Assembly (NCBI GenBank): GCA_001796525.1
Contig: MGMT01000024.1
Location: 1-56,860, forward strand
From: Chloroflexi bacterium RBG_13_51_52
GTDB lineage: Bacteria > Chloroflexota > Dehalococcoidia > Dehalococcoidales > RBG-16-60-22
Direction of reading: 5' to 3'
DNA length: 56,860 nt
The notes under the pieces were generated by a model. The model was not told where the DNA came from, ran no database searches, and was given only the letters and a program-made list of their open reading frames with translations. Positions 1,091-49,493 of the stretch are shown piece after piece. The position numbers were made by a program, and so were the translations under genes. Numbering within the stretch: the stretch's first letter is position 1; every line of letters starts with the position of its first letter.

Positions 1091-1103
1091 AGGCTATACC
1101 CTG

Positions 1104-1634: not shown

Positions 1635-1641
1635 ACTCCTT

Positions 1642-34313: not shown

Positions 34314-35045
34314 CTATCTGGTAGCGACGTTAACGTGAGATTCTTCTTTCTGATACAGCGTACCCATTTTTTCCAGATATAATCTGGCGGCGCTGACCCG
34401 TAAGTGCTTGGCATTATAATCGGGGTCAGCTTTGAGTTTGCTGTACATGCTATTCAAGTGGTGTTCTACAGTTTTAATATCAATGAAGAGGGTTCCGGCA
34501 ATCGCCGAGTTGGTATAGCCTTGTGAAAGCAGGCTGAGTATTTCCAGTTCGCGGGTGGTGAGTTGTTTCAGGAAGGGGCATTCAGGTTTGCCGGCGAACA
34601 TAAAAGTAGCCAGGGGTGGATCGAGAATAACCTGTCCCTGGCTAACAGCTAGAATCGTCCGGCACAGCTGGTCAATTTTATCAAGGGATTGTTTCAAGAA
34701 GAGAGCCATACCGCTTTCGCCGCAGAGGGCTAGTCTTCGCAGCAATTCAATATCTTGAGAGCTATACATTACTATTAATATTACGATACCCATTCTGGGA
34801 TTAGAATTTCTGATTTTTTCCAATTCTTCGATAGTATTTACATCGAGCTTTTTAATGCTTAGCAGCATAACATCAGGGGAGAGTTCCGATACGGCCCTTA
34901 AAATAGAACCTTTTCCGCCGTTGCCGGAAACACGCAGCACATCAATATTTTCATTCTTTGGTAATACATGATTAAATAATTCCCGATAAATTTCCTGTTC
35001 CTCAATCACTAACAGACTTACGTTTTCTGACTTCGATTGCATCAT
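34314..35045 (-). CDS. LuxR-family regulator with atypical (non-phosphorylatable?) receiver domain
   Basis: C-terminal LTTRELEILSLLSQGYTNSAIAGTLFIDIKTVEHHLNSMYSKL HTH. In the receiver, the acidic pocket reads VIEEQE (not DD) and the acceptor position reads MLLSIKK, with Ser in place of Asp; the conserved Lys (FLKQ) is kept. Confidence 0.8.
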   Translation of the reverse strand: MMQSKSENVSLLVIEEQEIYRELFNHVLPKNENIDVLRVSGNGGKGSILRAVSELSPDVMLLSIKKLDVNTIEELEKIRNSNPRMGIVILIVMYSSQDIELLRRLALCGESGMALFLKQSLDKIDQLCRTILAVSQGQVILDPPLATFMFAGKPECPFLKQLTTRELEILSLLSQGYTNSAIAGTLFIDIKTVEHHLNSMYSKLKADPDYNAKHLRVSAARLYLEKMGTLYQKEESHVNVATR

Positions 35046-35447
35046 GGTATTACCTTTCTGTTTGCTGAATTAACTAAATCCTTGCCTCACAGCCACTGCC
35101 CATCGTCAAATAACATTCAAATTCTAGACCAATTTTATAAAGATAAGAATAAAAATTCATAAACAAGTTGTTAAAATTCCATTAAATTTTCGTGTATTTT
35201 TTGCCATCTGGCAAATACTCACTCGTGAAATTCAGCATACGCTTTTAGATTTTGTCATCATTGACCCTAAATTACAATACATGCTGCCCCCCAATTTTCC
35301 ATGGGGATAATATTACTTTAGTACTGGATAATTCCCCTAGATGATTATTAGGTAAAGGGCTTGGCAAGATTGGGGATGGTCTGGTGTTCATCGAGAGCTG
35401 GTCGAGGTAAATTGTTAATACCTATACCGTGAAAGGAAATTCATGTG

Positions 35448-35624
35448 ATGCATCGGTTGGCTGGAAAAGCTTTTGATAACCAGAAAGGCATCACCGGAAT
35501 CGAAATAGTAATCGTGCCTTTGGCTTTCGTTGTTGCAGACGTTGCTATTACCTGCGTAGCGTTTTCGGCAGGTTTATTCTCAACACGGAAAACAAAGGCA
35601 ACTATTCATTTTAGATTGGATTAA
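35448..35624 (+). pseudogene. Truncated archaellin-like N-terminal fragment (58 codons)
   Basis: My manual translation is MHRLAGKAFDNQKGITGIEIVIVPLAFVVADVAITCVAFSAGLFSTRKTKATIHFRLD*. It parallels the first ~45 residues of the two archaellins (EKGITGLETAIILIAFVVVAAVFAYTALSAGLFSTQKAQEA) but carries Pro/Asp substitutions and an early stop. It is below the ORF-track size cutoff. Confidence 0.6.
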
Positions 35625-35852
35625 ACCAGAAGAACCGTATTAATGAAATATCCTACGCTTACAGGGTGATAAAACTGAATTTAAAATGTCAACCAGAAAC
35701 CCAATAAAGGTCAAGCGTGAAAAAAATTATAGTTAAGGATATGGAAGGGGGTGATTTCTTAAGGAAAAAAATAATCATCTAAATCCTGACACAAGGTTTA
35801 TTAATCGAAAGCATCACAACACAATAAAGTCCCTACTACTTAGGAGGAAAAA

Positions 35853-36500
35853 ATGTACAAGAAATACTTTAAGCACGAGAAAGGCATTACGGGCCTTGAG
35901 ACCGCTATCATCCTGATTGCATTCGTGGTGGTAGCCGCGGTCTTCGCCTATACTGCACTTTCCGCGGGTCTTTTCTCGACCCAGAAAGCCCAGGAAGCAG
36001 TCTACTCCGGGCTTAAGGAAGCCCAGAGCACGCTAGAGCTCAGGGGCGGCATTGTAGCAACGGCAAATACTGTTGGTGCTACCGGCAACATTAAGCAGCT
36101 GACCTTCGTAGTTTCCAATGCACTTGGCGGTGACCCGATTGATTTCACCGAGCCCTCACCGGCATCGGACAACTCCGGAGTCGCCGATACTAACAGCTCA
36201 AATAAGGTAGTAATCAATTACATCGATTCCAATCAGGTTGTGTCCAACCTTTTCTGGACCTGCACACCGCTGGGAACGAATGACGGCGACGACCTGCTGG
36301 AGACCGGCGAGAAATTCCAGATTACCATCGGGTATGATACCGCAGGTCAAGGTGGCGGCAATCTGATCGATGCACTTGATCCCACATTCCTTTCTGTGAA
36401 CGACACCTTCACGCTGGAAATCATGACCAATGCCGGTGCCGTGATCACCATCGAGCGGACCACACCCGCCTACATAGATCTAAAAATGAATCTTCACTAA
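35853..36500 (+). CDS. arlB: Archaellin (archaeal flagellin family) with class III signal peptide
   Basis: MYKKYFKHEKG|ITGLETAIILIAFVVVAAVFAYTALSAGLFSTQKAQEAVYSGLKEAQSTLELRG closely resembles euryarchaeal FlaB N-termini. The C-terminal ...LLETGEKFQITI...TIERTTP... is also archaellin-like. Strong RBS TAGGAGG. Confidence 0.9.
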   Translation: MYKKYFKHEKGITGLETAIILIAFVVVAAVFAYTALSAGLFSTQKAQEAVYSGLKEAQSTLELRGGIVATANTVGATGNIKQLTFVVSNALGGDPIDFTEPSPASDNSGVADTNSSNKVVINYIDSNQVVSNLFWTCTPLGTNDGDDLLETGEKFQITIGYDTAGQGGGNLIDALDPTFLSVNDTFTLEIMTNAGAVITIERTTPAYIDLKMNLH

Positions 36501-36540
36501 TATGTTTTAAACTAAAAAAGTGAAGCAAAAAGGAGAATAT

Positions 36541-37176
36541 ATGCTTAAGAAAATATTCAGGAAAGAAAAGGGCATCACCGGTCTGGAAACTGCCATCATC
36601 CTGATTGCATTCGTGGTAGTAGCCGCGGTCTTTGCCTACACGGCACTTTCCGCAGGCCTCTTTTCCACTCAGAAGGCGCAGGAAGCAGTTTATTCTGGGC
36701 TCAAGGAAGCCCAGAGCACCCTGGAAATCAAAGGGGCTATTATCGCCACCGGTAATGTCACCGGCGATGCCGGTCGTATCGGGCAGATAACGTTCACCGT
36801 ATCCAACGTGCTCGGGGGTGAGCCGATTGATTTCACCGAGCCATCGGGCGGCGCTCTTGGCATAGCCACTGGTAGCACGAACAAGGTAGTCATTAACTAT
36901 CTTGACTCATCCCAGGAAGTGGATAACCTTTATTGGACCCTTGCCAAACTGGGGAACGACGACGGCGACGACCTGCTGGAGACCGGCGAGAAATTCCAGA
37001 TAACCATCGGAGCGGTCGACGGCGCAGCCGAGGGTAACCTGGTACAAGCACTCAATCCAAATTATTTGAGTGTTAATAAGACTTTCAGTCTTGTGATATT
37101 GACACCGATAGGTGCCGTTGTCACGATTGAAAGGACTACACCACCCTACATCGATAAAATCATAAACCTGCGCTAA
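36541..37176 (+). CDS. arlB: Archaellin paralog
   Basis: I take the start as ATG 36541, behind AGGAG (36531-36535); the track start GTG 36520 is less likely. MLKKIFRKEKG|ITGLETAIILIAFVVVAAVFAYTALSAGLFSTQKAQEA... has the same hydrophobic core as the first archaellin over the residues I compared. Confidence 0.9.
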   Translation: MLKKIFRKEKGITGLETAIILIAFVVVAAVFAYTALSAGLFSTQKAQEAVYSGLKEAQSTLEIKGAIIATGNVTGDAGRIGQITFTVSNVLGGEPIDFTEPSGGALGIATGSTNKVVINYLDSSQEVDNLYWTLAKLGNDDGDDLLETGEKFQITIGAVDGAAEGNLVQALNPNYLSVNKTFSLVILTPIGAVVTIERTTPPYIDKIINLR

Positions 37177-37200
37177 TTGTAGTCGATAAAAGCTGAACAT

Positions 37201-37250
37201 GCGGGGTGGGGGTCTCCATAACCGGAGCCCCACCCCGAACCGTGGTTTTT
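37201..37250 (+). terminator. GC-rich hairpin plus T5 after the archaellin pair (probable partial terminator)
   Basis: CGGGGTGGGG-gt-CTCC ataacc GGAG-CCCCACCCCG (37201-37236), then TTTTT at 37245-37249, 8 nt downstream. Confidence 0.5.
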
Positions 37251-37337
37251 AGTGGGTGCTACCCGCTTTCCTTTAGCTGTGAGAGATGGGGATTCCAGCC
37301 GCAAGCATCTGCTCCAATGTAATAATGGAGGTCTGTT

Positions 37338-37814
37338 GTGGACAAAGCCATAACTACAGCTCTACTAATAATAGCGGGGGTTGTATGTATGATATTTGTC
37401 TTTAATAGTGTTTACCCGATGATTAACCGTTCCAGCCAGGCAATGACCAGTATGGCCGAGCAGGTTGATGAACGGATGAAGAGTCGGATTAATATTGTTC
37501 ATGCGGCAAATACAGCCAACCGTACGTCCGTTTATCTATGGATAAAAAACGTGGGCACCCAGCGTATCCTGGCGATTGAGGAAAGCGATCTGTTTTTCGG
37601 CCAGGAAACTGATTTCGAACGCATCGCTTATGAAGGCGATGCCGGCACAAATTATCCCCGCTGGTCTTTCGATTTTGAAAACGACACCCAGTGGATGACC
37701 AGCGCAACAATAAAAGTTACGATTGAATATGAGAGCGACCCGGGGGCCGGGACGTATTTTGCCAAGTTTATTATCCCTAACGGGATATACGACGAGTATT
37801 ATTTTAGCATGTAA
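37338..37814 (+). CDS. ArlF/ArlG (FlaF/FlaG)-family archaellum accessory protein
   Basis: GTG start behind GGAGG. It has an N-terminal TM helix (AITTALLIIAGVVCMIFVF), then ...RINIVHA...SVYLWIKNVGTQRI..., the beta-sandwich pattern typical of archaeal FlaG/FlaF. Confidence 0.65.
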   Translation: MDKAITTALLIIAGVVCMIFVFNSVYPMINRSSQAMTSMAEQVDERMKSRINIVHAANTANRTSVYLWIKNVGTQRILAIEESDLFFGQETDFERIAYEGDAGTNYPRWSFDFENDTQWMTSATIKVTIEYESDPGAGTYFAKFIIPNGIYDEYYFSM

Positions 37815-37825
37815 CGGAGCAAGAA

Positions 37826-38350
37826 ATGGAAACAGTGCTTGTTTCGATAATTTGCATAGCCCTGGTAGTCTTCGGGGGCATGACAATGTCCCAGGGCTTC
37901 ATGACGTCAGTTGATGCCAGTACAACAGGGCTTAGTGAAATAGGACAACGAACGGAAATAATGATGAGGACCGAACTGACACCAATAAGCGCGAATACCA
38001 CACTGATAACTGGTGCCGACCCTCTGGAAATAGTACTGGAGAACACCGGACAGACTAAGATGGCCGATTTTGAAAAATGGGATATCATCGTACAGTACTA
38101 TGATGATTCCGGCGACTATCAGATTGTATGGCTGCCCTACGCGGAAGGGGGAGCAGGCACTTACGAGTGGGAGGTTGTGTGGATAAGGCTAAACGGTCAA
38201 GCAGAGACATTTGAACCGAATGTATTGAATCCAGGCGAACAGATAATGATAAGAGCGTGGCTCGACCCATCAGTAGGTGCCGGTACTACTAATATGGTAG
38301 TTATATCAACACCTACAGGTATTACGAGTTCAACGTATTTTTCACCATAA
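37826..38350 (+). CDS. ArlF/ArlG (FlaF/FlaG)-family archaellum accessory protein
   Basis: N-terminal TM helix (VLVSIICIALVVFGGMTM), then ...LEIVLENTGQTKMADFEKWDIIVQYYDD... Confidence 0.65.
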   Translation: METVLVSIICIALVVFGGMTMSQGFMTSVDASTTGLSEIGQRTEIMMRTELTPISANTTLITGADPLEIVLENTGQTKMADFEKWDIIVQYYDDSGDYQIVWLPYAEGGAGTYEWEVVWIRLNGQAETFEPNVLNPGEQIMIRAWLDPSVGAGTTNMVVISTPTGITSSTYFSP

Positions 38351-38418
38351 AGAAGTAATATGAACAGTTACATTTTATTCATGATTTTATAGGAAAGGAA
38401 AAAACTGGAGCCGATAAC

Positions 38419-39510
38419 ATGGCGGTATTAATAATAACGATAATATGTATAGCCATGACTGTCGTCGGAGGTATGACGTTATCACAAGGAATACTCACTT
38501 CGGCGGATACGGCGGCGATTAATGCCAATAGTATCAGCGTTAGAGAAGGTGAAATATCGAGGACCGATCTGGATATTTTACGTGCCGCTAAACTCTCATG
38601 GGCTGATTATTTACGTGTAACTGTACAAAACAGCGGGCAGACCAAGCAATTTAACTTTGATAAATGGGATATTATTGTGAATTACACAGATGACGGCGGG
38701 ACTTCTTATTCCAAATGGCTCCCTTATAGCACTTCATTGCCGGTTGATAATGAATGGCAGAAAGCAAGAATAGGTCTTAACGGTCCAATCGAGTTTTTTG
38801 AGCCCGGGATTCTGAATCCTTTAGAAGAGATAGTTGCCCTGATTTATCTGGACCCACAATCGGGAAATGCTACGAGCGGAATTGTATCCTTTGTTACTCC
38901 CAACGGTGTATACAGCTCTAGTTCATTTTTAAATCTCGGTTATACAAGGTTAACCCCGCAATCGGAGAATATTACCATCGCCAACATAAAATATTACGAA
39001 CTGGTGGAAGCCGCACCGGCAGATGGTGTCGTTTCAATAGTTAGAGCGGATTTTGCTAAAAACGAGATAGCCAGAAAACTACTTTATAATGACACACAAT
39101 CAACTCGCCCGGCGAAGTTTATCTATCCTCTTGTCGGTATCAGCCAGATTCCGGCAGCCAACTGGACGGTAAATTACCGATGTTTCCTATCAGAGGGTTT
39201 TATAACCGCTGAAAATGACTTAGTTTATTTAAATATTGATATCAAAATAATAACAAAGGATGGTATGGTGAGAGATACCATCAACATTTCCCCTGTAGCT
39301 GAAGTTTCACTTTCCGTAGATCAAGTGAACATGTGGATAACTGTAAGCGGTTCTTATAATTTTCCCGATTATACAGTGGTAGATGAAAACGATTACCTTG
39401 AAATTGATTTTTATGGGGAAACTAAAGAGAAAGTAAATATTGGATATATGCTATTGAGCATAGATGACGATAGCCTGCCTATCGCAGACCAGACGAGGAT
39501 AGAAGCTTAA
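38419..39510 (+). CDS. ArlF/G-like protein with ~195-aa C-terminal extension
   Basis: The N-terminal ~165 aa are paralogous to 37826-38350: VTVQNSGQTKQFNFDKWDIIVNYTDDGG versus VLENTGQTKMADFEKWDIIVQYYDDSG, and FFEPGILNPLEEIVALIYLDP versus TFEPNVLNPGEQIMIRAWLDP. The remainder has no recognisable family. Confidence 0.6.
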   Translation: MAVLIITIICIAMTVVGGMTLSQGILTSADTAAINANSISVREGEISRTDLDILRAAKLSWADYLRVTVQNSGQTKQFNFDKWDIIVNYTDDGGTSYSKWLPYSTSLPVDNEWQKARIGLNGPIEFFEPGILNPLEEIVALIYLDPQSGNATSGIVSFVTPNGVYSSSSFLNLGYTRLTPQSENITIANIKYYELVEAAPADGVVSIVRADFAKNEIARKLLYNDTQSTRPAKFIYPLVGISQIPAANWTVNYRCFLSEGFITAENDLVYLNIDIKIITKDGMVRDTINISPVAEVSLSVDQVNMWITVSGSYNFPDYTVVDENDYLEIDFYGETKEKVNIGYMLLSIDDDSLPIADQTRIEA

Positions 39511-39512
39511 AT

Positions 39513-41024
39513 ATGAAAATAGTGGAAATGATAAAAGCACTCCCGTTTTTCGGAAATAATAAAAAGCGCAATAAATGGAGAAAGGGCGCTCTGAGCTTCG
39601 ATTTATTCTATCAGCTCTCATATATGTCTACGATTGCCGCCTCGGGCGTGCCGCGCGACCAGATTTTCGAACGTTCCGCCGAGATTCAGTGTTCTTCAGC
39701 CGAATATTTTAGAAAAATCAAACTGACCCGCGACCGTTTAAGGTACGACTATGCCCGAGCCTGCCGCTCCGTTGGAGAACCAGCCAAGGAAGAAGATATC
39801 AAAGGTCTACTTCTACGTCTTTCCAGCTCACTAACTTCCGGGGAGCCGGAATCAGAGTTTCTTTCGAGAGAGGCTGATGCCCGGGCCGCGGATTTTGAAA
39901 ATGAATACGGAAGAGACTTGGAAGCCCTGAAATTGTGGACTGATGCGTACATTTCCTTGATTCTTTCAGCGATTCTAGTGGTCGTTATCGGGATAGTATC
40001 CACAATGATCTGGAAAATCGAGACGGCTCTTATTATAGCCATGGCTTTTATCGCGGTGACTACTACGGCTGTCGGAGTCTGGCTGATATGGGTAGTATCG
40101 CCAAAAGAATTGACCGTCTTGAGCAAGCCAGGCTCGAAAGAACAAAAAATCGCCGCTGCATTGCTTAAACCGGTATTAGCCGCGGTTATCGGCATAAGCG
40201 CACTGTTTTTATTAACCGGAATGAATCTGGGTTTAGCTCTGATTATCATCGCCGTGATAGTCTTCCCGCTTGGTTTTATCATGTCGAGAGATGACAAGAA
40301 AATCGCCAAGCGAGATAACGAGGTAGGGACATTTTTACGTTCTCTTGGCGGTGTTTGCGCGGCATTAGAAACGACAGTGAATTCGGCTTTGGGGCGTATT
40401 GATCTCAACGCCATTAACATATTAAGGTCGTCAGTTAAAAATCTACACACAAGGCTAACCGCCGGTATTAAACCAAAACTATCGTGGAAGATGTTTATCG
40501 ATGAAACCGGAAGCGAGCTTACCAACCGCAGCGTGGGCATGTTTTACGATGCTATCGAAGTTGGCGGTTCCGCCGGTCAGGCAGGTAATCAGGCTGCTAT
40601 GTTCGCCAACAGGTTATCACAACTTCGCGCCCGCCGTAAAATGGTATCCAGTCCCTTCCGCTGGCTTTGTATCGCCATGCATGGTGCCGTCATCGTTATC
40701 CTGGTCTTTATTACGGAGGTAATCGTTGCCTTCGGTGGGATGGTGTCGAAAGCCCAGGAAACAATACCGAGACTAGCTGAATCCCCGGATATGAGCTCTT
40801 TCTCAAGTTTTAATCTATCAGGATTAGAAATTTTGCAGCATCTTGTTTTACCCCTGGTATTAATATTCACCGTAGCCAATGCTATTGTACCAGTCCTGGC
40901 GGAGGGGGGCAGCAAATACAAAATATTTAGCAATCTTGGAATTACAGCGGCTATTTCCGGCGTATCCCTTCTTATCCTGCCGATATTAGCCAACCAATTA
41001 TTTACATCAGTTTCTCAGATGTAA
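39513..41024 (+). CDS. arlJ: Archaellum platform membrane protein ArlJ (FlaJ; T2SS-F-like)
   Basis: 503 aa, polytopic. ...FDLFYQLSYMSTIAASGVPRDQIFERSAE...YFRKIKL...YDYARAC...LLRLSSSLTSGE...FLSREA... matches the FlaJ pattern. Confidence 0.8.
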   Translation: MKIVEMIKALPFFGNNKKRNKWRKGALSFDLFYQLSYMSTIAASGVPRDQIFERSAEIQCSSAEYFRKIKLTRDRLRYDYARACRSVGEPAKEEDIKGLLLRLSSSLTSGEPESEFLSREADARAADFENEYGRDLEALKLWTDAYISLILSAILVVVIGIVSTMIWKIETALIIAMAFIAVTTTAVGVWLIWVVSPKELTVLSKPGSKEQKIAAALLKPVLAAVIGISALFLLTGMNLGLALIIIAVIVFPLGFIMSRDDKKIAKRDNEVGTFLRSLGGVCAALETTVNSALGRIDLNAINILRSSVKNLHTRLTAGIKPKLSWKMFIDETGSELTNRSVGMFYDAIEVGGSAGQAGNQAAMFANRLSQLRARRKMVSSPFRWLCIAMHGAVIVILVFITEVIVAFGGMVSKAQETIPRLAESPDMSSFSSFNLSGLEILQHLVLPLVLIFTVANAIVPVLAEGGSKYKIFSNLGITAAISGVSLLILPILANQLFTSVSQM

Positions 41025-41033
41025 GGAGGAAAC

Positions 41034-41207
41034 ATGGACCCAGAAGAACAACTGAAAGAAATGGAAATGGAATTTCAGGAAGTTAGAGATGACTTAAAAG
41101 AAATGTTATTTGATATCCGCGCATATTTAATGGAAGCCCAGACTCCGATTCCAAACGACCTTGAAAAGGAGAAACTACGTGATGAGCTGGAGGCAGGAAG
41201 GAGGTAA
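41034..41207 (+). CDS. Small (57-aa) acidic coiled-coil protein, unannotated in the ORF track
   Basis: ATG 41034 sits 3 nt after the RBS AAGGAGGA (41023-41030). My translation is MDPEEQLKEMEMEFQEVRDDLKEMLFDIRAYLMEAQTPIPNDLEKEKLRDELEAGRR*. The motif resembles the N-terminus of the next gene. It exactly fills the gap between arlJ and the arlCDE-like gene. Confidence 0.6.
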   Translation: MDPEEQLKEMEMEFQEVRDDLKEMLFDIRAYLMEAQTPIPNDLEKEKLRDELEAGRR

Positions 41208-41213
41208 ATAACC

Positions 41214-42218
41214 ATGGTAAACGAAAAGAGACTTGATAACCTACAAGATGAAATCAAGTTATTGAAGGCAGAAGTGAAGAACTCTCTCGCGAGTGTCAGG
41301 GATTATCTTCTCAACATGGAACTGCCATCCTCGGAATTTTCGACTATTCTAGCGGCCCTGGCCGGGGATGATGCTAATCCTCAAAAAATGAACGTTGACA
41401 GCCATGTCTCAAATGACAAAGAGGATATGCCAAAACCGGAGTATATTCAAGAGGGGCCGGAAATTCCAGAGGAAGGTTTTACTCCTGAACCAAGCCAGCC
41501 AGGAGAATTTGAAGACCTGCTTGATTTTGAAGAATCAGGTAAGGAAGATGAAGCTTCTGAAGAGATGCCCGATGAAAGAGTGTTAGATAAAAATGTGCTG
41601 GAGGAAGAAGATGATTTGCCTGAAGATTCTCTTCTTTCTGAAGATGAATCAGATGAAACGGAAGACGATGATAGTATCCAGGAAGAAAGTGATGAAGAAT
41701 CTGCTGAAGAATTAGATTTACCTTTGGAGGAGGTACGTCCTATGGAATATGAACGGACTAATAACGAAGTGAACCAGGGGATACCTAAAGTAAACATGCT
41801 GGCTAATCTCATCAACTGGGTAGCCAGAGCCAAGAAGGAAATAGGGTATGAAGAGCTGCCAACGTTTTTAGAGGTCTATGGTGTTAGCGGTCATCTATCA
41901 CCGGAGTTGAAAGACGTTATTATCCATCTTGCCGAAGTGACGAAAGACCATCCCGATGCTGCCACCGACTCTGAAATCTGGAGTCAGTCAATGTTATCAC
42001 TGCACGGGATTCTTACGGGAGGGGATGCTCCTCTTAATCCTGTAATACCGTCATGGGTAGATTCTACCGATGAAGCAGAATCTCCAGATGAAGAGGAGAT
42101 AATCGAGATAGATAAAGAAAAACGGGCTAAATTAAAACTCGTATTTCCCAGCAGCAACGGCAAGAGCAAGGAGTTCTGCATAGACCTAACACCAGAAGAG
42201 AATGGCGGCGGTTCTTAA
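41214..42218 (+). CDS. ArlC/D/E (FlaC/D/E)-like archaellum protein with long acidic linker
   Basis: It has an N-terminal coiled coil and a ~130-aa D/E-rich region. The C-terminal segment ...NMLANLINWVARAKKEIGYEELPTFLEVYGVSGHLSPELKDVIIHLAEV... resembles the archaeal FlaD/E domain. Confidence 0.6.
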   Translation: MVNEKRLDNLQDEIKLLKAEVKNSLASVRDYLLNMELPSSEFSTILAALAGDDANPQKMNVDSHVSNDKEDMPKPEYIQEGPEIPEEGFTPEPSQPGEFEDLLDFEESGKEDEASEEMPDERVLDKNVLEEEDDLPEDSLLSEDESDETEDDDSIQEESDEESAEELDLPLEEVRPMEYERTNNEVNQGIPKVNMLANLINWVARAKKEIGYEELPTFLEVYGVSGHLSPELKDVIIHLAEVTKDHPDAATDSEIWSQSMLSLHGILTGGDAPLNPVIPSWVDSTDEAESPDEEEIIEIDKEKRAKLKLVFPSSNGKSKEFCIDLTPEENGGGS

Positions 42219-42257
42219 TGATGAAACCCCATCCTCTAACAAAAGAGGTGATTAAAA

Positions 42258-42974
42258 ATGGTAAAAAGCGATAAAAAGAAAGAAGCTATAGTTACGGGAA
42301 TAACAGAAGTTGATGACAAACTTGGCGGGGGCATTCCGCTCGGCTCACTTTGCCTTATCGAAGGTCATTCTGATTCCGGAAAAAGCGTTTTGTGTCAGCA
42401 TCTTACAAACGGCACTCTGTCAAACGCTTCGATTTCTGTAGCTTATTACACCACGGAAAATAACATCAGAAGCATAGTAAGCCAGATGGATTCTCTCAAC
42501 ATGAATATTCTGGACCATTTCCTGGCAGACCGCTTGAGGATATTCCCTTTGACTTTCCATAGCGGCCTGCCGCACGGGCACAAACCTTTTATAGTACTGA
42601 CACATCATTTTTCCAACCTGCCTCAAGAATTCAAGTTAATTATTGTAGATTCTATTACGCTGCTCGTAGCCCATAGTGAACCGGTGGCTATAATAGATTT
42701 CTTTTCCAGATGCAAGTCTTTATGCGACCAGGGTAAAACAATAATCGTGGTAGCACATTCCTACGCTTTCGAGGAGGACATTCTTTCACGGACCCGTTCA
42801 CTGTGTGATGCACGCTTCAAGCTGCGTTTGGAACAGGTTGGCGAAAGCATGATAAAGCTTATGGAGGTTTTAAAGGTCCGCGGTGCAGACCGTCCCACTG
42901 GAGACGTTGTAAGTTTCAATATCGAACCCAAGCTTGGTATGAGGATTATTCCGCTTGCTAAAGCCAGAGTCTAG
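42258..42974 (+). CDS. arlH: ArlH (FlaH) KaiC/RecA-like ATP-binding protein
   Basis: ...TGITEVDDKLGGGIPLGSLCLIEGHSDSGKSVLCQHL... (Walker A), ...YYTTEN..., and LIIVDSIT. Confidence 0.8.
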   Translation: MVKSDKKKEAIVTGITEVDDKLGGGIPLGSLCLIEGHSDSGKSVLCQHLTNGTLSNASISVAYYTTENNIRSIVSQMDSLNMNILDHFLADRLRIFPLTFHSGLPHGHKPFIVLTHHFSNLPQEFKLIIVDSITLLVAHSEPVAIIDFFSRCKSLCDQGKTIIVVAHSYAFEEDILSRTRSLCDARFKLRLEQVGESMIKLMEVLKVRGADRPTGDVVSFNIEPKLGMRIIPLAKARV

Positions 42975-42982
42975 GAGAGCAA

Positions 42983-44800
42983 ATGCTTCATCTTCCCTTC
43001 GAAATAAAGCCATGCCCACAGAACTGCGGGAAGGTATGCGGCGAAAATCTGGAAAACTGCCCGATATTCCTGAAGTTGCCGCCAGACTTACAGGATGTAT
43101 GCAAGAATAACCTGCATCTCCTGCAATACCTGTATATGTTACCGCTGGACGAGATGGAAATACCCCATTATTACGAAAAGATTACCCGGAAGCTGATGGG
43201 AACCAAAGATCCCAACATTATCTACAACATTGGCGGCGGAGTATTTGTTCATGTACTCGCTAATCCGGAAGATATCAGAGATCATTATATTGCCATCGAA
43301 CCAAGTATTATCGATCCCCAGAACCTTCTTCTTGAAGAAATTGAGTTTCAACTGGCAAAGCACGTTGAAGAGCTCGAGGGCGTGATGGAATCATCACAGC
43401 GGCTGGATATTATCATGGATATCGTCGATAAGATTGTGTACATTGACAATCAAAAGAACTCCTTAATTCCCAAGAACATTAAACAGAAAAACAAGAAAAA
43501 TAATGATGATAACGGAAATAGTAATATTGATTTTAGTCAAGAGAATGATAAACAATCTGAAAAACTTAAAGGAAGCGGAAAAGGGAAAATACATGTCACC
43601 CAATTCCAGTATAACAGCATACGTTACCTTTTAAGACGTAAACTCGAAGGCATGGGTGTTCTAGACCCGATGATAGAAGACCCATACATCGAAGATATTT
43701 CGTGCTCCGGTCTCGGAAACATCTTCGTGGAACATAAAATTTTCGGGGGGCTTCGGACCAGCATCGGATTCGATTCTAACGATGCGCTGGATAAATTCGT
43801 TATCGAGCTATCCGAAAGCATTAAGCACCCGGTGACTTTCCGCGAGCCGGTTGTCGATTCCACCCTGCCAGATGGCTCCCGTATCAATATCGTTTACGGG
43901 AACGATGTTTCTAAAAGGGGCAGCAATTTTACAATTCGTAAATTCAGCGAGACACCGATGAGTATACTAGAGCTTATCCAGTTCAACGCACTAAATTACG
44001 AAATGGCTGCTTATCTATCACTGATCATCCAAGAGGGTATGAACGTCTGGGTGTCCGGAGAGACGGCTTCAGGTAAAACAACCATGATGAATGCGCTGAC
44101 GACTTTCATTCCCCCTGAATACAAGATAGTGAGTATTGAAGACACGCCTGAAGTGCAGGTGCCCCACCATAACTGGATACGCGGTGTTACCCGAGGTTCC
44201 GGCAGACAGACTGAATCATCCGAAATATCCATGTTCGATCTTCTTAAGGCTGCCTTACGTCAAAGACCCAACCTTATCATAGTCGGGGAGATTCGTGGTA
44301 TCGAGGGCGCCGTTGCTTTTCAAGCGATGCAGACAGGTCACGCCTGTATGAGCACCTTCCATGCCGCATCGGTTTCCAAACTAATCCAGCGTATAACCGG
44401 CAATCCTATTAATGTGCCGAAGTCATATGTAGACAATCTAAACGTCATCGCCATCTGTCAGCAGGTACGCCTAGCCAGCGGACATCTAGCCCGACGTCTA
44501 ACCAGCATCAACGAAATTGTGAACTATGATTCGATTACCGACGCATTTTCCTTCATTGAGATTTTTAACTGGAATCCATTGGATGATACTTTTTTATTCC
44601 GCGGTTATCAGAACTCATACATACTGGAAAATAAAATCGCTCCCCGACGCGGGTTCCCTGAAGGTAAAAGAAGGCAGATATATAAAATATTAAAGCAAAG
44701 GGCAGAGGTCTTAAAACGTATTACCGAACATGGAAAAACGAATTTTTATGAAGTTTATTCAATATTATCTAAAGCATATCGCGAGGGATATTTCCGTTAA
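42983..44800 (+). CDS. arlI: ArlI (FlaI) archaellum assembly/motor ATPase (type II/IV secretion ATPase superfamily)
   Basis: Walker A VSGETASGKTTMMNAL, IEDTPE, Walker B LIIVGEIRG, and ...HACMSTFHA.... It has a long N-terminal domain with the YIEDISC pattern typical of FlaI. Confidence 0.85.
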   Translation: MLHLPFEIKPCPQNCGKVCGENLENCPIFLKLPPDLQDVCKNNLHLLQYLYMLPLDEMEIPHYYEKITRKLMGTKDPNIIYNIGGGVFVHVLANPEDIRDHYIAIEPSIIDPQNLLLEEIEFQLAKHVEELEGVMESSQRLDIIMDIVDKIVYIDNQKNSLIPKNIKQKNKKNNDDNGNSNIDFSQENDKQSEKLKGSGKGKIHVTQFQYNSIRYLLRRKLEGMGVLDPMIEDPYIEDISCSGLGNIFVEHKIFGGLRTSIGFDSNDALDKFVIELSESIKHPVTFREPVVDSTLPDGSRINIVYGNDVSKRGSNFTIRKFSETPMSILELIQFNALNYEMAAYLSLIIQEGMNVWVSGETASGKTTMMNALTTFIPPEYKIVSIEDTPEVQVPHHNWIRGVTRGSGRQTESSEISMFDLLKAALRQRPNLIIVGEIRGIEGAVAFQAMQTGHACMSTFHAASVSKLIQRITGNPINVPKSYVDNLNVIAICQQVRLASGHLARRLTSINEIVNYDSITDAFSFIEIFNWNPLDDTFLFRGYQNSYILENKIAPRRGFPEGKRRQIYKILKQRAEVLKRITEHGKTNFYEVYSILSKAYREGYFR

Positions 44801-44848
44801 GGTATCGGAATGTGAAGAACAAACCATCTTGCCGGAAGGAGATTTAAT

Positions 44849-45394
44849 ATGATATTCAAAGGCTTTAAATTCGGTAAATCAAAAGATAATGGAAAAGGAA
44901 AGTCCGGAAGCGGCGATAGCACCGCTACACAAATAGCCGAGTTGGAAGAACACCTTAAAGACCGGACTAATAATTTGAAACAAACGGAGAAGAAGCTTTC
45001 AAAGCTTTCCGAAAAAGTGAATGATATAGTAGAAATCGATATTGCCCCGGTAAGACCCCATGGGCCGATCAAAGAGCTGTCCATCGGATCAGAAGATACT
45101 CTGGATGATGTCGATATTGACGAAGGAGTAATAGCGGGGGATGCCCTTGAGGAAACCGTTGAGGATATCAAATTAGTAGAAAAACCAGTCGAATCCGAAC
45201 CTCCTCCGGTGACAGGAAAGGGAACAAAAAGCAATTATGACAGCGATTCGTTGAAGGCACTATTCACCAGCGTAGAAGAGGATGAAAATCCTCTGGCAAA
45301 TCTGATAAATTCACTGCCCGAGATCACCATTGATGAACTGGAGGAGGATTTAAAGGAAATAAAGGATATTATCAAGGACTGGCAGCAGAAATGA
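44849..45394 (+). CDS. Hypothetical acidic coiled-coil protein, last gene of the archaellum cluster
   Basis: 181 aa behind the RBS AAGGAG. It has a basic N-terminus (KGFKFGKSKDNGKGKSG), a coiled coil, then a D/E-rich C-terminal half. No family recognised. Confidence 0.6.
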   Translation: MIFKGFKFGKSKDNGKGKSGSGDSTATQIAELEEHLKDRTNNLKQTEKKLSKLSEKVNDIVEIDIAPVRPHGPIKELSIGSEDTLDDVDIDEGVIAGDALEETVEDIKLVEKPVESEPPPVTGKGTKSNYDSDSLKALFTSVEEDENPLANLINSLPEITIDELEEDLKEIKDIIKDWQQK

Positions 45395-45604: not shown

Positions 45605-47107
45605 ATGAGTTATAAACGTAATAAAAAGGGGTTGTGGGCAAATAAACACTTGCGGTATATCATCGCTATCATAGCGTTGTGCGCTGTTGTTTATTATTTG
45701 CCCGCTATCAGCGGCCGTCTCGGGTGGATAGGTGTTCAGGACTCTCTTAATAATCTCCATAACTTATATGGTATTGACTTCCTGGGTCTGATATTCTTCG
45801 CCCCGGTGGTGTATTCAGCTTACGTACTGGGTGTTATACCGGCAATCTTAACAGCATTTATTTCCATGTTAATCCTGTTGCCCCATGCCGTACTTATAGA
45901 CACATATCCCAATGCTCTGTTCAAACCCACAGCTTTTGTTATCATCCTTAGCGCGGTGGGGGCGGTAGTTGCCATGCTGCAAAAGAGCGAGCAGCAGCAC
46001 CGCCAGAGAATTAAGGAGATGAAATGTCTTTATGATATCGGTAAAGCGGCGGGAGACAGCAACTCGGTTGATGAGTTCCTGGGTAAAGTTGTGACGATAG
46101 TGCCGCAGGCAACACATTTACCGGAGGGAACCAGAGTTAGAATCACTTTTCGTGACAATGTTTATAAGAGCCCGAATTTCCAAAAATATACTAATAAAAC
46201 ATCCGAGAACCTGGTAATAAATGGGGAAAACAGCGGTATTGTGGAAATTTATTCCAACCACGATAATCCTTATTTAAAGAAGAAAAACTACCTGACCAAG
46301 ACACTCGCAGAAAGAATCGGAGGAGCTATCCGCCAGGTGGAACTGGAACAGTCACTCCGCGGCTATTACGAACAATTGGAAAAAGAGGTGGACATCAGGA
46401 CTAAAGACCTGGAGAAAGTACAGGAAAAACTCATCCGTTCCGAGCGTCTGGCAGCTGTCGGAGAGTTGGCTTCAGGCGTCGGGCATGAACTGCGAAATCC
46501 CTTAAACGTAATCAGGAATTGCGCCTATCTGCTTAATATGGCGTTAGCCGAAAAATCGGATGAAGAAGCGGCTAATACGCTGAAGGTCCTGGATAAACAA
46601 ATCGATATCGCCAATAAAATAGTAACCGACCTGCTGGATTTCACGCGTATCAAGCCCCCAACACAAGTCAAGGCCGAGATAAAGGCTTTGCTGGATGAAA
46701 GCCTTTCATGGCTAACCATTCCGGAACAAGTAAGCGTAAAAGTGAACCTGAACGGTAATTCAAAACTGATAAAGACCGACCCCGAGCAGATAAGCCGGGT
46801 GTTTTCTAATATCGTTTCTAATGCCGTGCAAGCGATGAACGGGAAAACCGGAGAAGTGAATATCAGCACCGATTCCGATGATAGTTATCTTTCGGTTATA
46901 TTCCAGGACACCGGCTGTGGAATACCTGAAGAAAACATGGAAAAGATATTCGAGCCACTTTTCACTACCAAGCCGAAAGGTATTGGACTCGGTCTGGCTA
47001 TTTCCAAGAGGCTGGTCGAACAAAATGGCGGCAAAATCGAAGTGTCGAGCAAGGTTGGCATGGGCACGACCTTCACTATCAAACTACCGATTGAACAAAG
47101 GAGCTAA
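45605..47107 (+). CDS. Membrane sensor histidine kinase
   Basis: N-terminal TM segments, H-box GELASGVGHELRNPLN, and ATPase motifs DTGCGIPEE and GIGLGLAISKRLVEQNGG. Confidence 0.9.
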   Translation: MSYKRNKKGLWANKHLRYIIAIIALCAVVYYLPAISGRLGWIGVQDSLNNLHNLYGIDFLGLIFFAPVVYSAYVLGVIPAILTAFISMLILLPHAVLIDTYPNALFKPTAFVIILSAVGAVVAMLQKSEQQHRQRIKEMKCLYDIGKAAGDSNSVDEFLGKVVTIVPQATHLPEGTRVRITFRDNVYKSPNFQKYTNKTSENLVINGENSGIVEIYSNHDNPYLKKKNYLTKTLAERIGGAIRQVELEQSLRGYYEQLEKEVDIRTKDLEKVQEKLIRSERLAAVGELASGVGHELRNPLNVIRNCAYLLNMALAEKSDEEAANTLKVLDKQIDIANKIVTDLLDFTRIKPPTQVKAEIKALLDESLSWLTIPEQVSVKVNLNGNSKLIKTDPEQISRVFSNIVSNAVQAMNGKTGEVNISTDSDDSYLSVIFQDTGCGIPEENMEKIFEPLFTTKPKGIGLGLAISKRLVEQNGGKIEVSSKVGMGTTFTIKLPIEQRS

Positions 47108-47114
47108 ACCTGAA

Positions 47115-49479: not shown

Positions 49480-49493
49480 AGGGGGATACGACT

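What the first reader, a model, noticed from the sequence alone, without database searches (positions are those of the whole stretch)
35853..45394. Archaeal-type archaellum gene cluster in a bacterial genomic context
Ten co-directional genes encode the hallmark archaellum parts:
- Two archaellins with class III signal peptides (EKG|ITGLETAIILIAFVVVAAVFAY...), strikingly like euryarchaeal FlaB.
- Three FlaF/FlaG-like proteins.
- FlaJ/ArlJ.
- A FlaC/D/E-like protein.
- FlaH/ArlH (Walker A GHSDSGKS).
- FlaI/ArlI (GETASGKT).

Everything around the cluster looks bacterial. There is a tRNA-Lys with encoded CCA and consensus sigma70 promoters (TTGACA-17-TATAGT). There are also NarL/OmpR/LuxR two-component systems, LemA/HtpX and an Opp transporter. 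There are no bacterial flagellar (flg/fli/mot) or che genes in the window. No prepilin peptidase (ArlK/PibD-like) is present either, so processing must be encoded elsewhere.

By eye, the accessory genes (37.3-45.4 kb) look AT-richer than the flanking metabolic genes. That would fit horizontal acquisition.

The archaellum is regarded as an archaeal signature organelle. I recall reports of arl clusters in some Chloroflexota, including a functional one. This would therefore be rare rather than unprecedented, but this locus differs in gene order and accessory content.
Basis: partly seen in the sequence, partly recalled or inferred. Interest (0 to 1): 0.9.

Follow-up and report, generated by a model that had tools for sequence, protein, structure and literature searches.

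The report
Archaellum gene cluster in a Chloroflexota bacterium
This is a genuine, intact archaeal-type swimming-motor (archaellum) gene cluster in a groundwater-sediment bacterium of the Dehalococcoidia group. It is a real cross-domain transfer, but this kind of cluster was described and shown to work in related bacteria in 2025.

Summary
Window 35853-45394 encodes two archaellins with class III signal peptides, three ArlF/G-type stator proteins, ArlJ, ArlH and ArlI. ArlI and ArlH pass curated NCBIfam cut-offs. ArlI scores 433 bits against Sulfolobus FlaI and 142 against Tad CpaF.

The host is bacterial. The window is a whole 56,860-bp contig of the MAG "Chloroflexi bacterium RBG_13_51_52", and all 80 best ArlI relatives lie in Dehalococcoidia/Chloroflexota genomes.

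Chimerism is excluded, because the cluster and both bacterial flanks are syntenic in more than 25 independent assemblies. All genes show dN/dS of 0.02-0.29.

The kind is already published: Sivabalasarma et al. 2025 report 244 complete clusters in Chloroflexota, including Dehalococcoidales, and a functional, structurally solved archaellum in Litorilinea.

Corrections and additions:
- There are 11 genes (a conserved 57-aa ORF was missed), plus a truncated third archaellin.
- The "FlaC/D/E-like" protein matches no FlaC or FlaD/E model and is only positionally equivalent.
- The AT-richness is modest.
- The cited sigma-70 promoter lies elsewhere.

This subclade has a distinctive arlJ-first order. 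The cluster is tightly linked to a LuxR-type regulator and a kinase/REC-REC/hybrid-kinase/OmpR module.

The parts
34314..35045 (-). Divergently transcribed NarL/LuxR-family regulator with an atypical receiver domain. By reading of the sequence, the acidic pair is EE and the acceptor position is Ser (LLS). Candidate transcriptional regulator of arlB.
   Evidence: PF00196 GerE at E 1.4e-13, with a weak REC hit. Present, on the opposite strand, upstream of arlB in 20 of 22 arlJ-first loci with enough sequence and in 0 of 20 arlJ-last loci. dN/dS 0.06-0.10.
35445..35624 (+). Truncated remnant (59 codons) of a third, divergent archaellin paralogue: VMHRLAGKAFDNQKG|ITGIEIVIVPLAFVV...
   Evidence: The paralogue is full length (197-230 aa) at the same position in L007, L008, L010 and L030. 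tblastn of the L008 copy against the window intergenic region gives 51% identity over 68 aa, E 2e-19.
35743..35755 (+). Invariant GGAAGGGGGTGAT element about 98 nt upstream of the arlB1 start codon. It is Shine-Dalgarno-like: by my own comparison it is nearly the complement of the 16S 3' end. It may be a 5'-UTR stabiliser or a regulatory site (inference).
   Evidence: Invariant in the 9-locus upstream alignment. Unique in the window. Occurs exactly once, at the same relative place, in 13 related loci. No start codon follows it within normal spacing.
35853..36500 (+). Archaellin ArlB1 with a class III signal peptide. Predicted cleavage is KG|ITGLETAIIL.
   Evidence: PF01917 at E 1.2e-25 and TIGR02537. 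The best solved relative is the L. aerophila archaellin 9i5h/9SIE/9SII at E 3.3e-36. That chain starts at the aligned Ile.
36520..37176 (+). Archaellin ArlB2, 70.7% identical to ArlB1. The real start is probably the ATG at 36541, which gives MLKKIFRKEKG|ITG..., parallel to ArlB1.
   Evidence: PF01917 at E 3.9e-23. Pairwise identity. Leader comparison.
37338..37814 (+). ArlG-like stator protein (first of the arlG-arlF pair in arl2 order).
   Evidence: NF052590 ArlF at E 1.7e-6, NF052591 ArlG at E 9.8e-6, and PF01917 at 28.1 bits, just below threshold. Conserved at 59-86% in arlJ-first loci. The G-versus-F assignment rests on position only.
37826..38350 (+). ArlF-like stator protein.
   Evidence: PF01917 at 33.3 bits (above the 29.5 cut-off) and PF22201 FlaF_Ig-like at E 5.7e-6. 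FlaF 4P94 at E 2e-5.
38419..39510 (+). Second ArlF-like protein (NCBI tag A2Y58_05875). It has an N-terminal helix, a FlaF/FlaG-fold beta-sandwich (about residues 51-172) and an extra beta-sandwich domain (about 177-363). It may be an envelope-binding stator extension (inference).
   Evidence: AlphaFold2 pLDDT 83, pTM 0.78. Foldseek finds FlaG 5TUH and FlaF 4P94/4ZBH with target TM 0.75-0.82, and only loose carbohydrate-binding or jelly-roll matches for the rest. The long form occurs only in the nearest relatives; other loci have two stator genes. 284 homologues were found.
39513..41024 (+). ArlJ membrane platform protein, placed before arlH-arlI in this subclade.
   Evidence: NF004703 at E 1.6e-110; PF00482 T2SSF. 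Order classes.
41034..41207 (+). It is a stand-alone paralogue of the N-terminal module of the next gene.
   Evidence: Called as a gene in two public assemblies. Conserved at 44-95% identity, directly upstream of the X334 orthologue, in all close loci. dN/dS 0.05-0.11. No Pfam hit, including FlaC_arch.
41214..42218 (+). X334: N-terminal coiled coil, acidic/Pro-rich linker and a four-helix C-terminal core (residues about 190-270). It is the positional equivalent of arlCDE and the presumed cytoplasmic ring/switch component (inference).
   Evidence: No Pfam or NCBIfam hit for it or for 74 relatives. In arlJ-last loci its homologue sits between arlB and arlG. That is the slot of the gene called arlCDE in L. 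aerophila. The core family has 487 representative clusters. AlphaFold2 predicts four helices, pLDDT 76. No PDB fold match. dN/dS 0.06-0.17.
42258..42974 (+). ArlH, a KaiC-like ATP-binding regulator of the motor.
   Evidence: NF004723 at 249.7 bits (cut-off 194); PF06745. Best solved relatives are FlaH 4YDS and 4WIA. 79-94% identical in close loci.
42983..44800 (+). ArlI, the hexameric assembly and rotation ATPase. It has a clade-specific N-terminal Cx3Cx3Cx6C motif and a low-complexity insert (residues about 165-212).
   Evidence: NF058587 at 663.6 bits (cut-off 550). 433 bits against FlaI 4II7, 142 against CpaF. Cys motif conserved in 21 of 21 arlJ-first loci inspected.
44849..45394 (+). Y181, a clade-specific accessory protein. 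It has a basic N-terminus, a coiled coil, an RPHGPxxELS motif, an acidic linker and a conserved C-terminal ...NPLANLIxSLPDVSxxELxDDLKEIKxIIKDWQKK. Function unknown.
   Evidence: No family found. Found only in the nearest relatives, always after arlI. dN/dS 0.11-0.29.
45605..50201 (+). Linked two-component operon: a membrane histidine kinase (45605-47107), a REC-REC protein (47118-47873), a REC-GAF-HisKA-HATPase hybrid kinase (47863-49479) and an OmpR-type regulator (49494-50201). Candidate regulatory module of the archaellum (inference from linkage).
   Evidence: Domains. The kinase lies downstream of arlI in 27 of 32 arlJ-first loci and OmpR in 22 of 26, against 0 of 32 and 0 of 27 arlJ-last loci. 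dN/dS 0.02-0.10.

Best explanation
The region is a bona fide, selectively maintained archaellum (arl) operon in a bacterium of the Dehalococcoidia lineage of Chloroflexota, the MAG RBG_13_51_52 from aquifer sediment. It descends from an old transfer of a euryarchaeal arl2-type cluster into Chloroflexota and has since been inherited vertically.

Inferred mechanism, by homology with archaeal systems and with the experimentally characterised Litorilinea aerophila archaellum:
1. Pre-archaellins ArlB1 and ArlB2 are cleaved after Lys-Gly by a class III signal peptidase encoded elsewhere in the genome.
2. The ArlI hexamer, working on the ArlJ membrane platform, assembles them into a filament and then rotates it by ATP hydrolysis. 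KaiC-like ArlH modulates ArlI.
3. ArlG, ArlF and a second ArlF with an extra beta-sandwich domain form the stator anchored in the cell envelope.
4. The 57-aa coiled-coil protein and X334 occupy the place of the cytoplasmic ArlCDE ring.

In this subclade arlJ has moved in front of arlH-arlI. The operon is also flanked by bacterial regulators, which probably control its expression: an atypical LuxR-type protein, and a kinase/REC-REC/hybrid-kinase/OmpR relay.

Shown here: gene content, family membership, bacterial host, genuine junctions and purifying selection. Inferred: filament assembly, rotation, the role of X334, the 57-aa protein and Y181, and the regulatory wiring.
For: - Family hits above curated cut-offs for ArlI and ArlH; strong hits for ArlJ and the archaellins.
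- The best solved-structure relatives are archaellum proteins: FlaI 4II7, FlaH 4YDS/4WIA and FlaF 4P94. For ArlB1 it is the bacterial archaellin of L. aerophila, 9SIE/9SII.
- The FG3 model has the FlaF/FlaG fold.
- Host: a 100% identical protein from a 56,860-bp contig is named Chloroflexi bacterium RBG_13_51_52. All 80 best ArlI loci come from Dehalococcoidia/Chloroflexota genomes, including Mb-scale contigs and complete chromosomes.
- Flanks carry bacterial-type OmpR, NarL, HisKA_3, SBP_bac_5 and LemA genes.
- The cluster plus flanks are syntenic in many independent assemblies.
- dN/dS is 0.02-0.29 for every gene.
- Published context: 244 complete clusters in Chloroflexota including Dehalococcoidales. 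These have arl2 order, arlF duplication, arlHIJ order variation and a peptidase outside the locus. The proposed donors are Methanotecta-related euryarchaea. Swimming and a 2.7 A filament structure were shown in L. aerophila (PMC12488501).
Against: - No class III signal peptidase is in the window, so processing cannot be shown here.
- The ArlCDE slot is filled by proteins that no FlaC or FlaD/E model recognises.
- One archaellin paralogue is truncated.
- ArlJ and the stator proteins score below NCBIfam equivalog cut-offs.
- No culture exists, so expression, assembly and motility are untested for this organism.
- dS is near saturation, so the dN/dS values are approximate.
- I did not build the donor-lineage phylogeny myself; it rests on the paper.
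Confidence: 0.88

Rival explanations
1. Assembly or binning artefact: an archaeal fragment was joined to bacterial DNA, or an archaeal contig was mis-binned into a Chloroflexota MAG.
For: The cluster's accessory genes have lower GC3 than the upstream metabolic genes. The source is a short-read metagenome assembly.
Against: - Both junctions recur in more than 25 independently assembled MAGs: LuxR|arlB on one side and arlI-Y181-kinase-REC-REC-kinase-OmpR on the other. These include a 1.47-Mb contig (L006) and a 125-kb contig (L023).
- The exact ArlI occurs with the same downstream genes on three separately assembled public contigs.
- The flanking genes are bacterial in type and 80-95% identical to those of the same relatives.
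- The archaellin GC3 matches the host.
Confidence: 0.01
2. The cluster is not a rotary archaellum. It would be an archaeal-type or Tad-like type IV pilus used for adhesion or twitching, whose parts merely resemble archaellum parts.
For: The archaellum belongs to the type IV filament superfamily. ArlJ hits the generic T2SSF model and ArlI the generic T2SSE model. The ArlCDE-like component is not recognisable.
Against: - ArlI passes the archaellum-specific FlaI equivalog cut-off (663.6 against 550). It scores about three times higher against FlaI than against CpaF.
- The archaellum-specific parts ArlH (KaiC-like) and the ArlF/ArlG stator are present.
- The filament protein is closest to an archaellin solved within a rotating bacterial archaellum.
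- The published ArlIJ tree puts the Dehalococcoidia loci in the archaellum clade, not the pilus clade.
Confidence: 0.04
3. The cluster is a decaying or non-functional relic of an old transfer.
For: One archaellin copy is reduced to a 59-codon remnant. There is no peptidase in the window. The switch-complex slot is unrecognisable by sequence models.
Against: - All 11 genes are intact.
- dN/dS is 0.02-0.29 against four orthologous loci.
- The Walker motifs are intact.
- The architecture is conserved over a clade spanning 58-81% ArlI identity.
- Archaellin copy number varies from 1 to 3 among relatives, so loss of one paralogue is ordinary.
Confidence: 0.05
4. The island was acquired recently by this particular genome, as the AT-richer composition would suggest.
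For: GC3 of the accessory genes is 0.38-0.51 against an upstream mean of 0.57, p = 0.003.
Against: - The same locus with the same flanks is present throughout a diverged clade.
- The neighbouring regulator genes have intermediate composition, and the archaellins match the host.
- No integrase, transposase or tRNA-adjacent junction flanks the cluster.
- The published analysis places the transfer at the ancestor of Dehalococcoidia and Anaerolineae.
Confidence: 0.02

Closest known systems
Chloroflexota archaellum clusters (Sivabalasarma et al., Nat Microbiol 2025, PMC12488501). The type example is Litorilinea aerophila, with PDB entries 9SIE and 9SII.
   Same: - The host is a bacterium of Chloroflexota.
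- Archaellins have a class III signal peptide cleaved before Ile.
- The stator genes are in arlG-arlF (arl2) order, and ArlH, ArlI and ArlJ are present.
- The peptidase is not in the locus, and no flagellar genes are nearby.
- ArlB1's best solved relative is the L. aerophila archaellin, E 3.3e-36.
- The paper explicitly includes Dehalococcoidales and mentions arlF duplication and arlHIJ order variation.
   Different: - This subclade has arlJ before arlH-arlI.
- It has a second ArlF with an extra beta-sandwich domain.
- It has a 57-aa coiled-coil gene plus X334 in place of a recognisable ArlCDE, and the extra protein Y181.
- ArlI carries a Cys4 motif at its N-terminus.
- The cluster is tightly linked to a LuxR-type regulator and a four-gene two-component module. 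There are no pilN/pilO-LysM genes and no single-domain cheY-like gene inside the locus.
- I found none of these details described in the paper's main text.
Euryarchaeal arl2-type archaellum operons (Archaeoglobus and Methanotecta-related). The published tree names these as the donor group.
   Same: The part list is the same: archaellins, ArlG/F, ArlH, ArlI and ArlJ. The assembly and rotation logic is the same. The motor proteins have FlaI and FlaH sequence signatures.
   Different: - The host is a bacterium.
- The canonical order has arlJ last, whereas here it precedes arlH-arlI.
- The ArlCDE Pfam domains are not detectable.
- Regulation is probably by bacterial LuxR and OmpR two-component proteins.
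- The published survey reports that CheF is absent from Chloroflexota.
SAR202 and other Dehalococcoidia archaellum loci (arlJ-last class; for example L040, L046, L059-L061, L077)
   Same: These carry homologous archaellins, stator proteins, an X334-type protein, ArlH, ArlI and ArlJ. ArlI is 48-54% identical.
   Different: - They keep the canonical order: X334-like, arlG, arlF, arlH, arlI, arlJ.
- They lack the LuxR and two-component flanks: 0 of 20, 0 of 32 and 0 of 27 loci.
- They lack Y181 and the long ArlF.
- The ArlI N-terminus has HxH...CP instead of four cysteines.
Bacterial Tad pilus (CpaF/TadA ATPase, TadB/C platform)
   Same: Both belong to the type IV filament superfamily of archaeal ancestry. 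Both use an ATPase plus a polytopic platform protein and a prepilin-type subunit.
   Different: - ArlI scores 142 bits against CpaF and 433 against FlaI. TadA-family NCBIfam scores 155.6 bits against 663.6 for FlaI.
- Tad systems have no ArlH or ArlF/G.
- The filament subunits here are full-size archaellins, not Flp pilins.

Membership tests
Archaellum (arl/fla) machinery | Archaellin filament subunit(s) with a class III (prepilin-like) signal peptide and a hydrophobic N-terminal helix | tested here: met
   PF01917 at E 1e-25 and 4e-23, plus TIGR02537. KG|ITGLETAIIL aligns with the mature N-terminus of the solved L. aerophila archaellin.
Archaellum (arl/fla) machinery | FlaI/ArlI-type dual-function ATPase, distinct from pilus and secretion ATPases | tested here: met
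   NF058587 equivalog at 663.6 bits, above the 550 cut-off. 433 bits against FlaI 4II7, 142 against CpaF and about 50 against PilT.
Archaellum (arl/fla) machinery | ArlJ/FlaJ polytopic platform protein | tested here: met
   NF004703 at E 1.6e-110 over the full length, though 370 bits is below the equivalog cut-off of 570. PF00482 scores above the gathering threshold.
Archaellum (arl/fla) machinery | ArlH/FlaH KaiC-like protein (archaellum-specific, absent from pili) | tested here: met
   NF004723 at 249.7 bits, above the 194 cut-off. The best solved relatives are FlaH 4YDS and 4WIA.
Archaellum (arl/fla) machinery | ArlF and ArlG monotopic beta-sandwich stator proteins | tested here: met
   Weak sequence hits to ArlF/ArlG/FlaF_Ig-like. 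FlaF 4P94 at E 2e-5. The FG3 model matches FlaG and FlaF with target TM 0.75-0.82. Which gene is G and which is F is inferred from order only.
Archaellum (arl/fla) machinery | Cytoplasmic accessory ring: ArlCDE (Euryarchaeota) or ArlX (Thermoproteota) | tested here: inconclusive
   X334, the 57-aa protein and the 74 other X334-family members scanned hit neither PF04659 nor PF05377, and X334 hits no NCBIfam model. There is no PDB fold match. Only the position corresponds to the gene called arlCDE in L. aerophila. A profile-profile comparison with archaeal ArlD/E could not be made, because no archaeal sequences were in reach.
Archaellum (arl/fla) machinery | Class III signal peptidase (PibD/ArlK or PilD) present in the genome | not testable with these tools
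   No peptidase A24 domain was found in any of the scanned window ORFs, and no motif match. The rest of the MAG is not available here. The paper reports that the peptidase lies outside the locus in Chloroflexota.
Archaellum (arl/fla) machinery | An assembled filament that rotates and drives swimming | not testable with these tools
   There is no culture. This has been shown only for L. aerophila.
Chloroflexota archaellum clade (PMC12488501) | The host genome is Chloroflexota (classes Dehalococcoidia or Anaerolineae) | tested here: met
   NCBI names the contig's protein as from Chloroflexi bacterium RBG_13_51_52. The 80 best ArlI loci are all Dehalococcoidia/Chloroflexota records. Flanking genes are up to 95% identical to those of the same MAGs.
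Chloroflexota archaellum clade (PMC12488501) | ArlI/ArlJ branch inside the archaellum clade, sister to Methanotecta-related Euryarchaeota | not tested
I rely on the published tree and on the score ratios.
Bacterial Tad / type IVa pilus | CpaF/TadA or PilB/PilT-type ATPase as the best-matching family, with Flp or type IVa pilins | tested here: not met
   The TadA family scores 155.6 bits and PilB 60.6 bits, against 663.6 for FlaI. CpaF structures score 142 bits against 433 for FlaI. The subunits are archaellins.

The most novel reading that the evidence does not exclude
In this Dehalococcoidales subclade the transferred archaellum may have been rewired to bacterial signalling.

The published survey reports that the archaeal CheF link between chemotaxis and the motor is absent from Chloroflexota. 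In its place, control would come from a co-inherited bacterial phosphorelay and an atypical LuxR regulator. The relay consists of a membrane kinase, a REC-REC protein, a REC-GAF hybrid kinase and an OmpR-type regulator.

The clade-specific proteins would form a new cytoplasmic switch or adaptor that replaces ArlCDE/CheF. These are the 57-aa coiled coil, X334 and Y181. The REC-REC protein might act as the CheY-like input.

The extra-domain ArlF and the Cys4 N-terminus of ArlI would be further adaptations to a bacterial envelope and physiology.
Probability: 0.2. Interest if true: 0.6.

Novelty: new member of a known kind. Interest (0 to 1): 0.33.

Why it matters
An archaellum in a bacterium is one of the few clear cases of a whole motility organelle crossing the domain boundary. 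That point was established in 2023-2025, so this locus does not change the picture.

Its value is as a well-resolved example from an uncultured, anaerobic sediment lineage, and for the subclade-specific features documented here. Three of them bear on open questions raised by the published work.
- The conserved physical linkage to bacterial two-component regulators is relevant to how a bacterium controls an archaeal motor without CheF.
- The unrecognisable proteins in the ArlCDE slot are relevant to what replaces the switch complex.
- The enlarged stator protein is relevant to how the stator is anchored in a bacterial envelope.

All three are testable leads, not findings.

Tried and rejected
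1. Direct Pfam and NCBIfam scans gave nothing for X334, Y181, the 57-aa ORF and the FG3 C-terminal half.
2. I scanned 24 locus-derived and 49 database relatives of X334 for FlaD/E or FlaC domains. None matched.
3. A profile of the X334 core against the word-indexed 5.8-billion protein set returned only unannotated Dehalococcoidales-type hypotheticals. The exhaustive HMMER search found 487 clusters, but only the top 150 are listed and none is annotated. A weak archaeal tail, if any, could not be inspected.
4. A profile search of the X334 core against PDB sequences, and a Foldseek search of its model against PDB structures, gave no significant match.
5. Sigma-70 promoter and intrinsic-terminator scans inside the cluster were not above the shuffled expectation. 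I therefore make no promoter claim.
6. Rfam found only the tRNA.
7. The taxonomy look-up of the MAG name failed. A full-text search for the MAG name found no paper. The stored supplementary genome table of the 2025 paper is truncated, so I could not establish whether this genome was in their set.
8. I considered a recent-island reading on the basis of composition. I rejected it because of clade-wide synteny.
9. I considered that the SD-like element precedes a leader peptide. I rejected this because no start codon follows it at a usable distance in the window or in L002.
10. I did not build an ArlI/ArlJ/ArlH phylogeny.

Full report

Yes. Ten co-directional + strand ORFs fill 35853-45394.
- The first two are archaellins: PF01917 at E 1.2e-25 and 3.9e-23, plus TIGR02537. 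They share the leader ...EKG|ITGLETAIILIAFVVVAAVFAY and are 70.7% identical to each other.
- Three monotopic proteins follow, with weak but concordant ArlF/ArlG/FlaF_Ig-like hits. The second hits Sulfolobus FlaF 4P94 at E 2e-5.
- The third was modelled with AlphaFold2 on 23 sequences (pLDDT 83). Its first beta-domain superposes on FlaG 5TUH and FlaF 4P94/4ZBH with target-normalised TM 0.75-0.82.
- ArlJ hits NF004703 at E 1.6e-110.
- ArlH hits NF004723 at 249.7 bits (cut-off 194) and has Walker A GHSDSGKS.
- ArlI hits NF058587 at 663.6 bits (cut-off 550) and has Walker A GETASGKT.

- A tRNA-Lys ends in an encoded CCA.
- LemA plus an M48 peptidase, an Opp-type transporter, and NarL-, OmpR- and LuxR-type regulators are present.
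- No flagellar, chemotaxis or prepilin-peptidase domain was found in the 36 flank ORFs scanned.

**2. Corrections to the observation**

(a) The protein called 'FlaC/D/E-like' (X334, 41214-42218) matches no FlaC or FlaD/E model. Neither do 24 orthologues taken from related loci, or 49 more distant database relatives.

(b) A conserved 57-aa gene (41034-41207) between arlJ and X334 was missed.
- It is called as a gene in two public assemblies.
- It is 44-95% identical in all close loci.
- It has dN/dS of 0.05-0.11.
- It is a stand-alone copy of X334's N-terminal coiled coil.

(c) The 807-bp spacer upstream of arlB1 holds a 59-codon remnant of a third archaellin (35445-35624). That paralogue is full length in L007, L008, L010 and L030.

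(d) The TTGACA-17-TATAGT match is at 14943-14971, not at the cluster. Promoter and terminator scans inside the cluster do not exceed shuffled controls.

(e) The composition claim is half right. Accessory genes have GC3 of 0.38-0.51 against a mean of 0.57 upstream (p = 0.003). The archaellins (0.58-0.62) look like host genes. The difference from downstream genes is not significant.

**3. Whose genome is it, and is the junction real?**

The third stator protein is 100% identical to 'hypothetical protein A2Y58_05875 [Chloroflexi bacterium RBG_13_51_52]', recorded on a contig of exactly 56,860 bp. The window is therefore a whole contig of that aquifer-sediment MAG.

A genome-collection scan with ArlI returned 80 loci. 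All are from Dehalococcoidia, Dehalococcoidales, SAR202 or other Chloroflexota records, at up to 81% identity. They include Mb-scale contigs and complete chromosomes.

I ran tblastn with 18 window proteins against those loci. The divergent LuxR-type gene, the whole arl cluster, Y181 and the downstream kinase/REC-REC/hybrid-kinase/OmpR operon are collinear in more than 25 independently assembled MAGs. The exact ArlI protein, with the same downstream genes, is also present on three separately assembled public contigs. Chimerism and mis-binning are therefore excluded.

**4. What is it, and how does it most likely work?**

ArlI scores 433 bits against Sulfolobus FlaI (4II7). It scores 142 against Tad CpaF and about 50 against PilT. 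ArlH's best solved relatives are FlaH proteins.

ArlB1's best solved relative is the archaellin of Litorilinea aerophila (9i5h, the same sequence as 9SIE/9SII; E 3.3e-36). That chain begins at the residue aligned with Ile after KG. This matches the reported mature N-terminus at Ile29.

Every gene, including the unassigned ones, shows dN/dS of 0.02-0.29 against four orthologous loci. dS is near saturation, so the values are approximate.

The best-supported reading is a functional archaellum.
- Archaellins are processed by a peptidase encoded elsewhere.
- ArlI and ArlJ assemble and rotate the filament, modulated by ArlH.
- The ArlG/ArlF stator provides anchoring in the envelope.

These mechanistic steps are inferred by homology. 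Only gene content, host, contiguity and selection are shown here.

**5. Comparison with what is known**

Sivabalasarma et al. (Nat Microbiol 2025, PMC12488501) found archaellum loci in 243 of 3,780 Chloroflexota genomes, 244 of them complete clusters, and compared representatives that include Dehalococcoidales. Their findings relevant here:
- The clusters have arl2 (arlG-arlF) order, arlF duplication and arlHIJ order variation.
- The peptidase lies outside the locus.
- L. aerophila swims, and its filament was solved at 2.7 A.
- The cluster was inferred to come from Methanotecta-related Euryarchaeota, by transfer into the ancestor of Dehalococcoidia and Anaerolineae.
- CheF is absent from Chloroflexota, so another component may couple signalling to the motor.

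The kind of system is thus already known, and the present locus is one more member. No paper in the searchable library mentions this MAG by name. I could not verify whether it was in their genome set.

**6. What is particular to this subclade**

The 80 loci fall into two classes.

The first class has 38 loci with ArlI 58-81% identical to the window. Their order is arlB(1-3), arlG, arlF, (arlF'), arlJ, 57-aa gene, X334, arlH, arlI. Among those with enough flanking sequence:
- 27 of 32 have the kinase.
- 22 of 26 have OmpR.
- 20 of 22 have the divergent LuxR gene.

The second class has 36 loci at 48-54% identity. They keep the canonical order, with the X334-like gene before arlG and arlJ last. 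They have none of these flanks: 0 of 32, 0 of 27 and 0 of 20.

X334's homologue in that second class sits in the slot of the gene called arlCDE in L. aerophila. It is therefore a positional equivalent. Its four-helix core (pLDDT 76) has no recognisable relative among solved structures.

Other clade-specific features:
- The long ArlF carries an extra beta-sandwich domain with only loose carbohydrate-binding-module resemblance.
- Y181 has conserved RPHGP and C-terminal NPLANLI...DWQKK motifs.
- ArlI has a Cx3Cx3Cx6C N-terminus in 21 of 21 loci inspected. It lies outside the FlaI model.
- An invariant Shine-Dalgarno-like GGAAGGGGGTGAT lies about 98 nt upstream of arlB, and no start codon follows it.

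The linkage to bacterial regulators suggests control of the archaellum by two-component signalling, but does not show it.

**7. Verdict**

It is a new member of a published kind, not a new kind.

Interest is moderate to low for a specialist in 2026. The subclade-specific regulators and accessory proteins are the only parts that might repay further work.

Noticed in passing
window 35445-35624 (+): This is a truncated, 59-codon remnant of a third, divergent archaellin paralogue. The paralogue is full length as the first gene after LuxR in L007, L008, L010 and L030. Archaellin copy number varies from 1 to 3 across the clade.
   Followed up: yes
window 41034-41207 (+): A conserved 57-aa coiled-coil gene lies between arlJ and X334.
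   Followed up: yes
window 35743-35755 (+); also L002:2044-2056, L003:2068-2080, L006:2796-2808 and 10 further loci: An invariant GGAAGGGGGTGAT lies about 98 nt upstream of the arlB start. It nearly complements the 16S rRNA 3' end, yet no start codon follows it. It could be a 5'-UTR 'STAB-SD'-type mRNA stabiliser or a regulator binding site; this is untested.
   Followed up: partly
window 42983-43120 (ArlI residues 1-46): ArlI has a Cys-rich N-terminus, CPQNCGKVCGENLENCP (Cx3Cx3Cx6C). It is conserved in all 21 arlJ-first loci inspected and replaced by HxH...CP in the arlJ-last clade. It lies outside the FlaI family model. It may be a metal-binding site.
   Followed up: partly
window 43475-43620 (ArlI residues about 165-212): There is a low-complexity Lys/Asn/Asp-rich insert (KNIKQKNKKNNDDNGNSNIDFSQENDKQSEKLKGSGKGK) between the N-terminal and ATPase domains of ArlI.
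   Followed up: no
window 41790-41830 (X334) and 45290-45330 (Y181): X334 (VNMLANLINWV) and Y181 (NPLANLINSLP) share an (N)xLANLIN motif at the start of their conserved C-terminal regions. It could be a common docking motif or a coincidence.
   Followed up: no
window 362-3225 (-): A contractile-tail module sits at the left end of the contig. It comprises a T4 baseplate-like protein (PF12322), a gp19-type tail tube (PF06841) and a tail sheath (PF04984/PF17482). It may be a prophage tail or a contractile injection system running off the contig.
   Followed up: no
window 4075-6975 (+): A second regulatory set has a similar make-up: a GAF-HisKA_3 kinase, a NarL-type regulator and another REC-REC protein (6148-6975). 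It lies just upstream of a formate-dehydrogenase-like, NuoF-like and MTHFR gene block.
   Followed up: no
window 34314-35045 (-): The LuxR-type regulator next to arlB has a degenerate receiver domain. The acidic pair is EE and Ser replaces the phospho-acceptor Asp (LLS). It is probably phosphorylation-independent.
   Followed up: partly
window 36520-36541: The mechanical ORF for ArlB2 starts at GTG 36520. The ATG at 36541 gives an 11-residue leader (MLKKIFRKEKG|) parallel to ArlB1 and is the likelier start.
   Followed up: no
window 51791-52207 (+): A stand-alone single-domain receiver protein (138 aa, PF00072 at E 1.7e-16) lies 1.6 kb downstream of the OmpR gene. It is CheY-like in architecture only.
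   Followed up: no
window 14943-14971 (+): This is the only TTGACA-N17-TATAGT match in the window (0.02 expected by chance). It lies upstream of the Opp substrate-binding protein gene, not at the archaellum cluster.
   Followed up: yes
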